In this document: one piece after another, positions 60,308 through 62,764 of the stretch
How the letters are laid out: each line of letters opens with the position of its first letter
Numbering within the stretch: the first letter of the stretch is position 1
From: Escherichia phage JK1
Sequence record: MZ436830.1
Direction: 5' to 3' (one strand)
DNA: 64,000 nt
The notes under the pieces: model-generated
Database searches by the model: none
What the model saw: the letters and a program-made list of their open reading frames with translations, nothing else
What the model was told of the DNA's origin: nothing
Made by a program: the position numbers and the translations under genes

Positions 60308-60485
60308 CTAAACGAATAGGTTCATGAATGCCATATCCCTGAACAGAAATTTCTGTAGTAGGATAAATTCCATCAATATCACCCATATTCCACGCTTCGT
60401 TAAATTGCTGTTCGCCTGAATTACTAAACCACTCGGCGAAAGCATTTAGCACATCTTTAGAACCTTCAATAATTATCTTTGCCAT
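60264..60485 (-). CDS. small hypothetical protein
   Basis: 73-aa ORF. Confidence 0.45.
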   Translation of the reverse strand: MAKIIIEGSKDVLNAFAEWFSNSGEQQFNEAWNMGDIDGIYPTTEISVQGYGIHEPIRLVEYDLCTGEEVKYD

Positions 60486-60847
60486 TACAAACTCTCGGTG
60501 AAGGTACGAGCGATAACGTCGCGCTGCTGTTCCGGAGTCAGAGAGTTAAAGCGAACTGCATAACCGGATACACGGATGGTCAGCTGCGGATATTTTTCCG
60601 GATGCTTAACTGCATCTTCCAGAGTTTCACGACGCAGAACGTTAACGTTCAGGTGTTGACCACCTTCAATTTTAACTGTAGGCTGTGGCTCAATTTCAAT
60701 TTCACGGGCATGCAAACCGTAGAAAATTTCTGGGTCTACAAAAGAGTCCTCTTTAAAGGTTTTAGAGACAATAATTCGTGCTTGAATACCATCTTCAAAA
60801 TAAATAGTGCCTTTATGTGTGCCTTCAAGAATTTGATATGCTTTCAT
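60485..60847 (-). CDS. autonomous glycyl radical cofactor (GrcA/YfiD-like)
   Basis: C-terminal ...[27 protein letters not shown] glycyl-radical motif; 3' half GC-rich. Confidence 0.8.
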
Positions 60848-60854
60848 ATAAACC

Positions 60855-61235
60855 TCAATTAGAAAATAAATTTATCCAAGATTGTTCTTTAATTAAAAAT
60901 GGCTCAGAATCATATGCCATTAAACTTTGGGTAATTAATCCTTTAAAAGGTCCATCAATAAATTCCATGGTAAAATATGGAATTTTATTCATTAGCCGTG
61001 CATTAGGAGCAGTGCACAAAACTCTGCATCCTTTGAATATACCTTTTTGTAATTTGTATTGCTTGGGATAAAATTCGCTCAAAGTGTTATTATTTGCCAA
61101 AATTTCAAAATGATTCACCAATTTATTTTTAATAGTTTTTGGCGAAAAATAAAGATATTCGAAAAGCTGAGTGTCTGTCATCATTGCATTCCAATCACAA
61201 AAAATTGAGGACGAGTAATACCACCAATGCAACAT
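60855..61235 (-). CDS. hypothetical protein
   Basis: 126-aa ORF, start uncertain. Confidence 0.4.
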
Positions 61236-61723
61236 TTACTATTACAGCAGTAGTGTACAGTGTCAATATGGACGCTATAAATCTTATCCATATCAGGAGA
61301 TTTGACAGGCTCATCAATTATATACAAAATTCGCGAAAGCGATAAACCTCTGAACTTACTTCCTTTATTACCAATAAAACTGCGCACAGAATCAGTAAAT
61401 AAACGAAAACGTATATCATCATTAGAATAACGCGAAAATTCCTTTTTAATGTTATTTGCAGAAATTTTAGCGTAAGCTGAAGTATTAGAAAGAACAATAA
61501 CTGTTCCGCCATCATACAGCCAATTAGCAGCAAAGTTAGTCACAGCAATTGATTTACCAGATTGACGTCCACCATCTAGTCGAAGTGTACAATATTCTTT
61601 AAATAAATGCGACGAATCAGGTACATAAAATCCACTATTACAAATTTCTTCTACTCTAGCATCAGAATGGTGTGTAAAAGCATTCATCAGGGATAGATAA
61701 GGACCAGTTAAAAATGTTCTCAT
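61181..61723 (-). CDS. small P-loop NTPase
   Basis: Walker A GGRQSGKS, Walker B ILYIIDEP; start trimmed to MRTFL. Confidence 0.5.
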   Translation of the reverse strand: MRTFLTGPYLSLMNAFTHHSDARVEEICNSGFYVPDSSHLFKEYCTLRLDGGRQSGKSIAVTNFAANWLYDGGTVIVLSNTSAYAKISANNIKKEFSRYSNDDIRFRLFTDSVRSFIGNKGSKFRGLSLSRILYIIDEPVKSPDMDKIYSVHIDTVHYCCNSKCCIGGITRPQFFVIGMQ

Positions 61724-61864
61724 TTTATTCTCTCTAAATTTGGGCCATTCCGTGGCGCATGAATTGTCCATTTCTGTATTTACCCATTACCGCACTCAGG
61801 CTCGACCTTATCACAGGTTGGCGGGAATCCCTCACAGAATCATGAGGTCCAGCTTGTTCCCATA

Positions 61865-62338
61865 TTATTTGAACGATTTAACGTACTGAATAGAACCTTT
61901 ACTATTCACAAAGGCAATTTTACCATTTTTATTATACATGGTAGCAGTACGTTGATAACCATAAGTTTGTTTACCAGATTGATAACCAACTAATGCGAAA
62001 TTATCTTCGCCCATTTTATTCTGTTTAGCGCGAATGCGTTCATGACCATGTGCCATAAGAACCTTAGCATCACCGGTTGCAATGGATCGACGAGTTTTTT
62101 CATCTTCAACTGTATTAACAAAGTCGTCAAATGAATCAAATTTAGCATGAGATTTATTATACAGTTTTCCATCTACTGCATAATTATATCCCTGTACATC
62201 CATCTCAACTTCTGTACCATCATCCAATACAGCAGTGATTTTTTGACCTTTTTTAAATTTCAAAAGATCAGTAAAAGATTCAGCAATAATTTGAGAATTA
62301 ATAGCTGCTTCAGTGATAAATTCTTGATATGTTTTCAT
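61865..62338 (-). CDS. internal protein with capsid-targeting sequence
   Basis: N-terminus MKTYQEFITEA typical of T-even internal protein CTS. Confidence 0.6.
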   Translation of the reverse strand: MKTYQEFITEAAINSQIIAESFTDLLKFKKGQKITAVLDDGTEVEMDVQGYNYAVDGKLYNKSHAKFDSFDDFVNTVEDEKTRRSIATGDAKVLMAHGHERIRAKQNKMGEDNFALVGYQSGKQTYGYQRTATMYNKNGKIAFVNSKGSIQYVKSFK

Positions 62339-62347
62339 ATGTTTCCT

Positions 62348-62764
62348 TTAAATGTAAATATTTTTACCGTAATACTTATACCAATGTGGTTTCATTAAAA
62401 TTTTTTCATCAAGTCGTTGTTGACTCAATTTAATAGCTGATTTGCATGGATTATAATCATTTTTCCATTCTATTGGAATATCGCTGATGTCAGGAACTTC
62501 AGTATCTTTTATACTGAACCCGCGTTTTAAGCATTCCGTTATAATGTCTAATTGACGCTTTCGCAAAAATTCTAACTTATCGTAAAAGAACGTAACATGA
62601 CCAGAACCTAAAATAAACTCGGAAGATATTTTAAAATCTTTAACGCGCTTACCGTTTGCCACATGCTTACGAACTATACCAAAAACACGTGGCAATTCAC
62701 GATATTCTGCAATTAAATGCTGATCAGTAAGTTCAGATACTAAAGTCAAATTAATACGAGTCAT
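62348..62764 (-). CDS. denV: endonuclease V (pyrimidine dimer DNA glycosylase)
   Basis: 138 aa; [12 protein letters not shown]...WYKYYGK. Confidence 0.9.

What the first reader, a model, noticed from the sequence alone, without database searches (positions are those of the whole stretch)
61772..61864. GC-rich ORF-free spacer between internal-protein gene and P-loop gene
About 95 nt with clearly higher GC than the surroundings (cgtggcgcatgaattg...caggttggcgggaatccctcacagaatcatgaggtccagc) and no ORF over 10 codons on either strand. It contains a possible hairpin (cctca...tgagg). It could be a small RNA, a structured terminator/processing site, or a decayed remnant of a mobile element.
Basis: seen in the sequence. 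Interest (0 to 1): 0.45.

Follow-up and report, generated by a model that had tools for sequence, protein, structure and literature searches.

The report
Conserved structured RNA in phage leader
The GC-rich "spacer" is one copy of an apparently undescribed, strongly conserved three-way-junction RNA element found in over a thousand virulent phage genomes (T4 included), often inside tRNA gene arrays; its function is unknown.

Summary
The GC-rich stretch is real (49.5% GC against 34.4% for the window). It is the centre of a 141-nt untranslated region, 61724-61864 on the minus strand, between an internal-protein gene and the true start of the vs.8 P-loop gene (ATG at 61723). It contains a hairpin (H0), a 41-nt core, and a second hairpin (H4). 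The 40-nt core occurs in 1,085 of 50,697 phage records: T4-likes, rV5-likes, Phapecoctavirus, about 47-kb Klebsiella siphophages, Kagunavirus-like and Vibrio phages. It is almost never annotated. It is absent from 185,579 bacterial and archaeal species genomes and from E. coli, and matches no Rfam family. Across 59 distinct copies the core fits a three-way junction. P1 covaries (95-97% paired, up to 5 pair types) and carries a conserved bulged G. P3 is always paired despite C-G to U-A, G-C and A-U changes. P2, both junction strands and one loop are nearly invariant. Outside T4-likes it lies on the tRNA strand, next to or inside tRNA arrays, or ahead of a terminator. No reading frame is conserved. 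It is not a terminator, a PeSL cassette or a decayed remnant. Best reading: a new phage-specific structured RNA module that binds some factor. That function is inferred, not shown.

The parts
61724..61864 (-). Complete untranslated interval (141 nt) between the stop codon of the internal-protein (ipIV-like, DUF7412) gene (TAA 61865-61867) and the true ATG of vs.8.
   Evidence: ORF list. phrog_1488 (177 positions) aligns from residue 3 of the protein that starts at 61723. The CF1, RB69 and Klebsiella homologues start at the aligned ATG. T4 and this window read the upstream part in different frames.
61824..61850 (-). H0: 5' hairpin CCUCAU-GAUUCU-GUGAGG (61847-61830), possibly extended by GGA (61850-61848) pairing with UCC (61826-61824).
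   Evidence: Kept with changes in Tequatrovirus relatives: CCUCAU/AUGAGG in T4, CCUUAU/AUAAGG in L066 (C-G to U-A), CCUCGC/GUGAGG in L052, and shortened forms CCUU-AUUU-GAGG and CCUCA-AUAC-UGAGG. Every other class also has a hairpin directly 5' of the core: GAAUG/CAUUC vs GAGUG/CACUC vs GUGUAU/AUACAC.
61782..61822 (-). Three-way-junction core. The covariance-model hit spans 61778-61826.
- P1: G61822, C61821, C61820, A61819 paired with U61786, G61784, G61783, U61782. G61785 is bulged.
- P2: ACCU 61818-61815 paired with AGGU 61808-61805; loop GUGAUA 61814-61809.
- J2/3: CGA 61804-61802.
- P3: GCC 61801-61799 paired with G61795 and GC 61793-61792; loop UGA 61798-61796; bulged U61794.
- J3/1: GGUAA 61791-61787.
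   Evidence: Covariance model R1 gives 66.2 bits, E about 2e-19, and this is the only hit in the 64-kb window. Pair counts on 59 distinct cores: P3 is 100% paired with C-G/U-A, C-G/A-U/G-C/G.U and G-C/G.U pair types. The first three P1 pairs are 95/97/95% paired with 5/5/3 pair types. The +2 position is G in 56 of 59. Formal counts on alignments A3 and A6: 88-89% of cells paired against 16-46% for slid registers, and a covariation score that 0 of 500 shuffles reach.
61744..61756 (-). H4: 3' hairpin GCCA-CGGAA-UGGC, with GGA in the loop. Specific to the T4-like class.
   Evidence: Present in all 40 distinct T4-like leaders as GCC-A(N)GGAA(U/C)-GGC. The Gelderlandvirus variant is GCCG-ACGUAA-CGGGC. 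It is read in different frames in Tequatro- and Mosig-type phages, so it is not coding.
61721..61735 (-). Shine-Dalgarno-like AGAGAG (61735-61730) and the true start codon ATG (61723-61721) of the vs.8-like P-loop gene (61181-61723).
   Evidence: Sequence. Start supported by phrog_1488 coverage and by tblastn alignments that begin at residues 1-5.

Best explanation
The spacer is the core of a 141-nt untranslated RNA segment on the minus strand. It carries one copy of an apparently undescribed, phage-restricted structured RNA module.

The module is a compact three-way junction:
- a short closing helix P1 with a conserved bulged G;
- an almost invariant hairpin P2 (ACCU-GUNNNA-AGGU);
- a junction strand, mostly CGA;
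- a 3-bp hairpin P3 with a free loop;
- an invariant junction strand GGUAA.

A variable hairpin (H0) always precedes it.

SHOWN: the sequence family, its distribution, the helices, the strand, the absence of a conserved ORF, and the genomic contexts.

INFERRED: helix sequences drift while the junction strands and the P2 loop do not, so the junction most likely forms a specific binding surface or pocket for a factor common to infections of enteric and Vibrio hosts. That factor could be a host protein, a host RNA or a small ligand.

The module works as an autonomous RNA unit. In rV5-like, Phapecoctavirus and Klebsiella siphophages it is transcribed with the tRNA array. There it is probably released as a stable RNA of about 50-130 nt, because it is enclosed by long stems or followed by a terminator. 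In T4-likes, including this window, the same unit has been fixed in the leader of vs.8 together with hairpin H4. There it may additionally affect processing or translation of the vs.8-to-regB transcript.
For: 1. Conservation far beyond relatedness. The 40-nt core is at least 80% identical (mostly at least 95%) in 1,085 of 50,697 phage records from unrelated families, while the flanks are unalignable.
2. Non-coding everywhere. Annotation under the match is almost always 'none'. 30 of 73 copies lack a start codon before the core, several have a stop directly before it, and the frames differ between classes.
3. Structure.
   - P1 is 95/97/95% paired with 5/5/3 pair types.
   - P3 is 100% paired, with C-G to U-A changes in five distinct sequence types from Vibrio, jumbo-size, small-contig and Karam/Kanagawa phages. 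It also shows C-G to G-C (L098) and pairing shifts that recruit the former bulge (L092/94/95, L101/103/104).
   - The two tandem 'b' copies differ at exactly four core positions, which form two Watson-Crick to Watson-Crick swaps.
   - Formal counts.
4. Strand. Many G.U pairs would be A-C mismatches on the other strand. The orientation always equals that of neighbouring genes and tRNAs.
5. RNA-gene context. The element is on the same strand as tRNA genes and within about 50-1,200 nt of them in 20 non-T4 loci. It is inside the array in L061 and phiWec188. Intrinsic terminators follow it in L032, L078 and L045.
6. Autonomy. No shared downstream gene. vs.8 homologues were found only in Tevenvirinae-sized genomes.
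7. Phage-specific. 0 hits in 185,579 bacterial and archaeal species genomes and none in E. coli.
8. No known family. No Rfam match at E up to 10, no tRNA, and no covariance-model hit in T4 rnaC/rnaD.
Against: - No transcript data were available. Release as a stable RNA, and any binding partner, are inferences.
- Nearest-neighbour energetics do not favour the junction in this window: -20.7 kcal/mol for the best structure containing it, against an MFE of -31.8. Fold z-scores are about 0.
- P2 is essentially invariant, with one G-C variant, so it is supported mainly by conservation.
- Part of the invariance was imposed by the search patterns I used.
- The P1 register is ambiguous because of G-runs. 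A +1 slide gives a similar covariation score.
- The P3 parse chose the better of a bulged and an unbulged register for each sequence.
- In T4-likes the fixed position about 55-90 nt before vs.8, together with H4, fits a cis-regulatory leader at least as well as a trans-acting RNA.
- Many sequences are closely related, so cell counts overstate the number of independent events.
Confidence: 0.5

Rival explanations
1. Cis-acting regulatory leader of vs.8, riboswitch-like or protein-operated. The three-way junction senses a ligand or protein and, through H4 or an alternative long-range pairing, controls translation or stability of the vs.8-vs.7-vs.6...regB message.
For: In every Tevenvirinae genus examined the element sits directly upstream of the vs.8 homologue, whatever the upstream gene is: Tequatro-, Mosig-, Moon-, Dhaka-, Gapriver-, Karam-, Jiaoda-, Teguna-, Gelderland- and Kanagawavirus (denV, ipIV-like, ipIII and others). 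H4 is conserved in all 40 T4-like leaders. RNAalifold finds an alternative pairing of GUGCG (the P3 3' strand) with UGYGC (the H4 5' strand), as expected for a two-state switch. The invariant junction resembles an aptamer.
Against: Outside T4-likes there is no vs.8 and no common downstream gene. The element lies inside tRNA arrays, before a promoter (rV5, EcoPhCCP1) or before a terminator. H4 does not overlap the Shine-Dalgarno sequence. The alternative pairing shows only one-sided changes. No Rfam riboswitch matches.
Confidence: 0.22
2. RNA-processing element or self-cleaving ribozyme that helps cut polycistronic early or tRNA transcripts. Equally, it could be a recognition site for a host RNase.
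For: It is embedded in tRNA arrays that need processing. It is a small three-way junction with an invariant junction, like small ribozymes. In the Klebsiella and Phapecoctavirus phages the unit is enclosed by long stems (GUUGUGAC...GUCACAAC) that look like RNase III-type sites.
Against: No match to any Rfam ribozyme family at E up to 10. The hammerhead core strands CUGANGA and GAAA are absent (read from the sequence). tRNA arrays are normally processed without such an element. There is only one copy per genome, not one per junction. Catalysis cannot be tested here.
Confidence: 0.1
3. DNA-level element: a recombination or homing target, a PeSL-type promoter-terminator cassette, or a relic of a mobile element.
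For: It is spread across unrelated phages, which implies horizontal transfer. Homing-endonuclease genes lie within 0.2-0.5 kb in two loci, and tRNA regions are homing hot spots. Strong sigma-70 promoters follow the element in rV5-like and Kagunavirus-like phages.
Against: Compensatory changes and G.U pairs point to a single-stranded, strand-specific structure. There are no promoter hexamers or terminator in the interval. PeSLs are multi-copy simple stem-loops plus TTTACW-N17-TAYWAT (PMC4122927), whereas this element is single-copy. Most loci have no endonuclease gene nearby. The core is conserved while the flanks are not, which is the opposite of a decaying insertion.
Confidence: 0.06
4. Protein-coding: the N-terminal extension of vs.8 as annotated in T4 (219 aa), or a separate peptide of about 33 aa (PVIRSS.SAVMG...).
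For: The frame is open across the core in all copies. T4 RefSeq annotates it as part of vs.8, and some records call a 33-aa 'phage protein'. A few variable positions fall on third codon positions.
Against: - 30 of 73 copies have no start codon before the core.
- Class-c and rV5-like copies have UAA or UGA immediately upstream.
- Sequence downstream of the core is unrelated between classes, and H4 is read in different frames.
- T4's in-frame fusion depends on an 11-nt insertion that is absent here.
- phrog_1488 starts at MRTF.
- The 33-aa product hits no PHROG family.
- About 90% nucleotide identity between T4 and rV5 is not how a peptide is conserved.
Confidence: 0.02
5. Intrinsic terminator at the end of the internal-protein gene, or a chance GC fluctuation.
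For: It lies directly after a stop codon and contains a stable hairpin (H0).
Against: No U-run after any stem. The terminator scan finds nothing in the interval. The core is conserved in 1,085 phage records.
Confidence: 0.02

Closest known systems
T4 stable RNAs rnaC and rnaD (species 1 and 2 RNAs) in the T4 tRNA cluster
   Same: Small non-coding RNAs of T4-type phages, encoded on the tRNA strand and co-located with tRNA genes, with function still unknown. The non-T4 copies of this element occupy just such positions.
   Different: The covariance model finds no hit in T4's rnaC/rnaD/tRNA region. There is no BLAST similarity: only one place per T4 record. In T4-likes the element lies about 6 kb from the tRNA cluster, in an mRNA leader.
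Three-way-junction riboswitch aptamers (e.g. the purine class) and other 5'-leader aptamers
   Same: A compact junction with drifting helices and invariant junction and loop nucleotides. In T4-likes it sits in a 5' untranslated leader, followed by a second hairpin.
   Different: No Rfam riboswitch matches at E up to 10. There is no functionally coherent downstream gene set. It occurs inside tRNA arrays and before promoters. It is absent from all bacterial genomes scanned. No ligand is known.
GOLLD and ROOL large ornate RNAs (phage- or prophage-borne, often near tRNAs)
   Same: Phage-associated structured RNAs of unknown function that tend to lie next to tRNA genes.
   Different: Those are 500-800 nt and are present in Rfam. 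This core is 41-49 nt (units of about 110-130 nt) and matches no Rfam model.
Hammerhead and other small self-cleaving ribozymes
   Same: Small three-helix junction with a conserved core, and an association with phage sequence.
   Different: The conserved strands here are CGA and GGUAA plus a GUNNNA loop, not CUGANGA/GAAA. No Rfam ribozyme family is hit. Cleavage is untested.
PeSL promoter-early stem-loop cassettes of T4-type phages (PMC2839356, PMC4122927)
   Same: Conserved intergenic motifs in the plastic early regions of T4-like genomes.
   Different: PeSLs are many-copy simple stem-loops fused to an early promoter. This element is single-copy, has no promoter, forms a junction, and is shared with non-T4 phages.

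Membership tests
Any Rfam 15 family | Covariance-model match at or near the gathering score | tested here: not met
   No hit overlapping 61724-61864 even at E up to 10. None over the rV5 copy. Only tRNA and one group I intron were found at gathering score in eight other loci.
tRNA / tmRNA | Cloverleaf detectable by ARAGORN | tested here: not met
   0 tRNA or tmRNA genes in the whole window. The element is never called as a tRNA in loci where neighbouring tRNAs are found.
Intrinsic terminator | G+C-rich stem immediately followed by a U-run | tested here: not met
   The terminator scan finds none in the interval. No U-run follows H0, P2, P3 or H4 (sequence).
PeSL cassette | Stem-loop plus early promoter (TTTACW-N17-TAYWAT), in many copies per genome | tested here: not met
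   No promoter-like site in the interval. One copy in the 64-kb window and one place per record in almost all genomes. PeSL definition from PMC4122927.
T4 rnaC / rnaD stable RNAs | Sequence or structure homology to T4 species 1 and 2 RNAs | tested here: not met
   Model R1 gives no hit in NC_000866 66400-74500, which contains rnaC, rnaD and the 8 tRNAs.
Riboswitch (generic) | Conserved aptamer-like structured domain in a 5' leader | tested here: met
   Junction with an invariant core and covarying helices, in the vs.8 leader in T4-likes.
Riboswitch (generic) | Consistent association with a functionally coherent set of downstream genes | tested here: not met
   The downstream feature differs by class: vs.8, tRNAs, promoters, terminators or a 629-aa gene. 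vs.8 is restricted to Tevenvirinae-sized genomes.
Riboswitch (generic) | Specific ligand binding that switches an expression platform | not testable with these tools
   Needs in-line probing or reporter assays.
Hammerhead ribozyme | Core strands CUGANGA and GAAA around a three-way junction, plus self-cleavage | tested here: not met
   The junction strands are CGA and GGUAA. No Rfam hammerhead hit. Cleavage is not testable here.
Protein-coding gene (vs.8 N-terminus or a small ORF) | Conserved open frame with a start codon, and codon-like conservation | tested here: not met
   30 of 73 copies lack a start, stops lie directly upstream in two classes, and frames are inconsistent. The PHROG profile starts at MRTF, and the 33-aa product has no family.
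Conserved structured RNA (new family proposed here) | Base-paired helices kept through compensatory substitutions on one strand | tested here: met
   P1 and P3 covary. 88-89% of cells are paired against 16-46% for slid registers, and 0 of 500 shuffles reach the covariation score. The rival hairpin fold is broken by the C28 to G/A variants.
Conserved structured RNA (new family proposed here) | Expression as RNA (a transcript, stable species or defined ends) | not testable with these tools
   No transcriptome data at hand. The T4 omics paper examined does not mention this locus.

The most novel reading that the evidence does not exclude
The three-way junction is a new class of functional RNA core carried by virulent phages of enteric and Vibrio hosts. 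It could be a new small self-cleaving ribozyme used to process tRNA-array or early transcripts. Or it could be an aptamer or decoy that binds a host factor, for example a tRNA-directed defence nuclease, an RNase, or an immune signalling molecule. On this reading phage T4 itself has carried an unrecognised functional RNA inside what is annotated as the vs.8 coding sequence.
Probability: 0.2. Interest if true: 0.9.

Novelty: new variant of a known kind. Interest (0 to 1): 0.66.

Why it matters
T4 is one of the most closely studied genomes in biology, yet this element is unannotated there. In the reference record it is swallowed by an over-extended vs.8 ORF.

A 41-nt RNA core that stays at least 90% identical across at least five unrelated groups of virulent phages, but is absent from bacterial genomes, points to a strong shared selective pressure during infection of gamma-proteobacteria. 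It travels with tRNA arrays, which have recently been linked to escape from tRNA-targeting defences. That makes a role in RNA processing or counter-defence a concrete hypothesis, testable in T4, rV5 or Klebsiella phages.

Practically:
- It supplies a covariance-model-ready family definition.
- It corrects the vs.8 start codon in many phage annotations.
- It flags spurious small ORF calls over the element.

Tried and rejected
- Rfam at permissive thresholds on the window and the rV5 copies: only noise (snoRNA/miRNA hits at E of 1-9).
- ARAGORN: no tRNA.
- Single-sequence folding of both strands: z about 0.
- Host origin: no E. coli match and none in GTDB species genomes.
- RNAalifold on the long T4-like alignment: recovered only P2 plus a speculative long-range pairing, because indel-rich flanks misalign.
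- Rival fold for the core (one irregular hairpin ACC/GGU, GUG/UGC, AGGU/GCCU, preferred by RNAfold): it fits the near-invariant alignment as well as the junction does. I rejected it because 30 of 33 sequences mismatch at its A19-N29 pair, 8 of 33 mismatch at pair 15-33, and variants with G or A at position 28 break its G20-C28 pair while keeping P3.
- P1 without a bulge: the third and fourth pairs are only 68% and 34% paired. The register with a bulged G at +2 is much better.
- Small-ORF reading. PeSL. Homology to rnaC/rnaD.
- vs.8 as a co-occurring partner: not found outside Tevenvirinae.
- A scan that left P2 free found no new members, so P2 could not be tested by covariation.
- Literature searches for the sequence, for vs.8/denV, and for phage tRNA-cluster non-coding RNAs found no description.
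- Ideas from memory that I did not test and do not rely on:
  - The P2 loop fits the UGUNR pattern of SRP Alu domains. No Rfam family of any kind, SRP included, was hit.
  - The H4 loop resembles a CsrA GGA site.
  - J2/3 and J3/1 could form an S-turn.

Full report
**Setting.** The window is a Tequatrovirus (T4-like) genome segment. Positions 61100-62400 are 100% identical to Escherichia phage vB_Eco_TB37. All genes here run on the minus strand:
- nudE
- lysozyme e
- denV (62348-62764)
- an internal-protein gene of the DUF7412 / phrog_3155 family (61865-62338)
- the finding
- a vs.8-like P-loop gene
- vs.7
- vs.6 (GrcA-like)
- ... regB

**The observation.** The GC enrichment is real. 61772-61864 is 49.5% GC against 34.4% for the window, the 99.6th percentile for 93-nt windows. 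The statement that no ORF exceeds 10 codons is wrong, and the boundaries need correcting:
- T4's reference annotation runs vs.8 (219 aa) right across the element.
- The mechanical ORF call in this window also runs into it, but in a different frame.
- The vs.8 family profile phrog_1488 (177 positions) aligns from residue 3 of the protein beginning at ATG 61723.
- Distant homologues start at the aligned ATG.

The untranslated interval is therefore 61724-61864, 141 nt.

**What known things it is not.**
- No Rfam family matches at E up to 10.
- There is no tRNA, and no promoter or terminator in the interval.
- Fold energy is no better than shuffles on either strand.
- There is no similarity to E. 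coli genomes.

**Unexpected conservation.** BLAST of 201 nt against 50,697 phage records shows the expected Tequatrovirus matches. It also shows a core of about 43 nt that is about 90% identical in unrelated phages such as rV5 (Vequintavirus) and Citrobacter phage CF1 (Moonvirus), always in unannotated DNA.
- The 40-nt core alone hits 1,085 records, with 'none' as the usual annotation.
- Carriers identified: many Tevenvirinae genera, Vequintavirinae, Phapecoctavirus, Klebsiella siphophages of about 46-48 kb, Kagunavirus-like phages of about 44 kb, a Vibrio phage of 136 kb, and a contig of 360 kb.
- A pattern relaxed at known variable positions finds 0 matches in 185,579 bacterial and archaeal species genomes, and 28 in metagenome contigs whose sizes and contents look like phage.

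**Context.** In all T4-likes the element lies directly upstream of the vs.8 homologue, whatever the upstream gene is. Some Karam- and Kanagawa-type phages carry two tandem copies.

Elsewhere it is on the same strand as tRNA genes and close to them:
- inside the array in L061 and phiWec188 (tRNA-Thr ... element ... tRNA-Gly);
- about 45 nt after a tRNA in L080;
- about 200-600 nt upstream of the array in rV5-likes and Klebsiella siphophages.

In L032, L078 and L045/L058 an intrinsic terminator follows it. In rV5-likes and EcoPhCCP1 a strong sigma-70 promoter follows. There is no shared neighbouring protein gene. tblastn finds vs.8 only in Tevenvirinae-sized genomes.

**Coding potential.** One frame (PVIRSS.SAV...) is open across the core in all copies, simply because the conserved bases contain no stop in that frame. 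However:
- 30 of 73 distinct copies have no start codon before the core.
- Klebsiella-phage and rV5-type copies have UAA or UGA immediately upstream.
- Everything after the core differs between classes.
- The homologous H4 hairpin is read in different frames in Tequatro- and Mosig-type leaders.
- The 33-aa product matches no PHROG family.

The element is non-coding.

**Structure.** The core has a fixed length and fits a three-way junction: P1 / P2 (ACCU-GUNNNA-AGGU) / J2/3 (CGA; rarely CUA, CAA, CGG, CA) / P3 (GCC-NNN-G(N)GC) / J3/1 (GGUAA) / P1'.

Formal counts:
- On 46 and 49 distinct cores, 88-89% of cells are paired against 16-46% for slid registers. The covariation score is 0.15 against 0.06 in shuffles, and 0 of 500 shuffles reach it.
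- The +1 slide scores similarly on covariation, because P1's G-runs make its register ambiguous.
- My search patterns had fixed much of the core, so I ran scans that left one hairpin free. Leaving P2 free found nothing new, so P2 is effectively invariant. Leaving P3 free found informative variants.

P3 variants found:
- GUC...GAC in five distinct sequence types;
- GCG-CAA-CGC;
- GCG-CAAG-UGC;
- GCA-AGAG-UGC.

A tabulation of 59 distinct cores gives:
- P3 100% paired, with pair types G-C/G.U, C-G/U-A and C-G/A-U/G.U/G-C.
- P1 first three pairs 95/97/95% paired with 5/5/3 pair types, using a register with a bulged nucleotide at +2. That nucleotide is G in 56 of 59 and A in 3.

The two tandem 'b' copies differ at exactly four core positions, which are two Watson-Crick to Watson-Crick swaps, one in P2 and one in P3. 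The many G.U pairs fix the functional strand as the gene and tRNA sense strand.

**Caveats on structure.**
- RNAfold prefers other folds. In this window the best structure containing the junction is -20.7 kcal/mol against an MFE of -31.8. For the isolated core it predicts one irregular hairpin.
- That rival fold fits the near-invariant alignment as well as the junction does. It is contradicted by mismatches at its 19-29 pair (30 of 33) and its 15-33 pair (8 of 33), and by the position-28 variants that break its G20-C28 pair but keep P3.
- P2 rests on conservation plus one G-C variant.
- Many sequences are close relatives, so counts of cells are not counts of independent events.

**Flanking modules.**
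- A hairpin (H0) always lies directly 5' of P1, and it covaries within and between classes. Examples: CCUCAU/GUGAGG, CCUUAU/AUAAGG and CCUCGC/GUGAGG; GAAUG/CAUUC against GAGUG/CACUC; GUGUAU/AUACAC.
- T4-likes add H4 (GCC-A(N)GGAA(U)-GGC) in all 40 distinct leaders, 12-25 nt before the Shine-Dalgarno sequence.
- In Klebsiella siphophages and Phapecoctavirus the whole unit of about 125 nt is enclosed by a long stem (GUUGUGAC...GUCACAAC), as are neighbouring units in the tRNA region.

**Copies and relation to known T4 RNAs.** The covariance model (R1) finds exactly one copy in the window (61778-61826, minus strand, 66 bits). It finds none in T4's rnaC/rnaD/tRNA region.

**Comparison with known elements.**
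- It is not a PeSL. Those are multi-copy stem-loop-plus-promoter cassettes.
- It is not a terminator, a tRNA or any Rfam family.
- It resembles riboswitch aptamers in architecture but lacks a coherent regulon.
- It resembles T4 rnaC/rnaD and GOLLD/ROOL in its association with tRNAs, but it is unrelated in sequence and size.
- Literature searches found no description.

**Interpretation.**
- Shown: a phage-restricted, strand-specific, structured, non-coding sequence family with an invariant junction.
- Inferred: it acts as RNA, as an autonomous factor-binding module. It is likely released as a stable small RNA where it sits in tRNA arrays or before terminators. In T4-likes it is built into the vs.8 leader, where it may also influence that message.
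- Main rival: a purely cis-regulatory role in T4-likes.
- Not excluded: a processing or ribozyme role.
- Effectively excluded: DNA-level, coding, terminator and chance explanations.

Noticed in passing
window 61181-61771; T4 NC_000866 64253-64912 (L025 1754-2413): The vs.8 start codon is probably mis-annotated in the T4 reference (219 aa) and in many relatives. The N-terminal extension covers the RNA element, and different phages read it in different frames. The family profile and the distant homologues support the start at MRTF (window 61723), which gives 180 aa.
   Followed up: yes
L035 5092-5251; L038 9020-9180; L076 362-522; L085 582-742; L086 696-880: Karamvirus- and Kanagawavirus-type T4-likes carry two tandem copies of the element, about 115-140 nt apart. 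The second copy is more divergent: J2/3 is CA and P3 has no bulge.
   Followed up: partly
L026, L028, L029, L037, L042, L053, L057, L061, L084 (tRNA regions of Klebsiella ~47-kb siphophages and Phapecoctavirus): The ORF-poor tRNA region is built of successive units, each enclosed by similar long stems (...CCGUUGUGAC ... GUCACAAC...). In L028 one unit right after the element holds a tRNA-like fragment with a T-arm (GCGGTTCGATTCCGC) that ARAGORN does not call.
   Followed up: no
L028 9535-9610: A phage tRNA with a CUA anticodon (ARAGORN labels it 'Pyl'), i.e. a possible amber-suppressor tRNA in a 70-kb viral contig.
   Followed up: no
L087 (EcoPhCCP1) about 760-900; L071: Directly after the element there is a near-consensus sigma-70 promoter (TTGACA-N17-GATACT). 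It would drive a C/U-rich transcript of about 70 nt that ends in a strong intrinsic terminator. This could be a second small RNA gene.
   Followed up: no
window 60485-60847: The vs.6 homologue is annotated as an autonomous glycyl-radical cofactor (GrcA-like) in T4 and TB37. It lies in the same transcription unit, downstream of the element.
   Followed up: no
L002 (phage Solly) 1747-2064, and other records with a two-piece match: A subset of Tequatroviruses carries an extra small gene of about 325 bp between denV and the ipIV-like gene. This shows how plastic the region just upstream of the element is.
   Followed up: no
L045 2195-2731; L081 1-188; L032 12784-13079: Homing-type HNH endonuclease genes lie 0.2-0.5 kb from the element in two unrelated phages. 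A group I intron lies about 5 kb away in a third. Most loci have none.
   Followed up: partly
window 61744-61756 and all T4-like leaders: The H4 loop (A-N-GGA-A-U in a short hairpin, 12-25 nt before the ribosome-binding site) looks like a CsrA-type GGA-in-loop site. This is a resemblance from memory only and was not tested.
   Followed up: no
L047 (Klebsiella phage W15-2, 'UNVERIFIED') and L086 first copy: Two copies look chimeric or damaged. W15-2 has a C-to-A change that breaks P2, and a P1 3' strand of another class. The first KLB31 copy has mismatched P1 strands. These may be decaying copies or recombination products.
   Followed up: no
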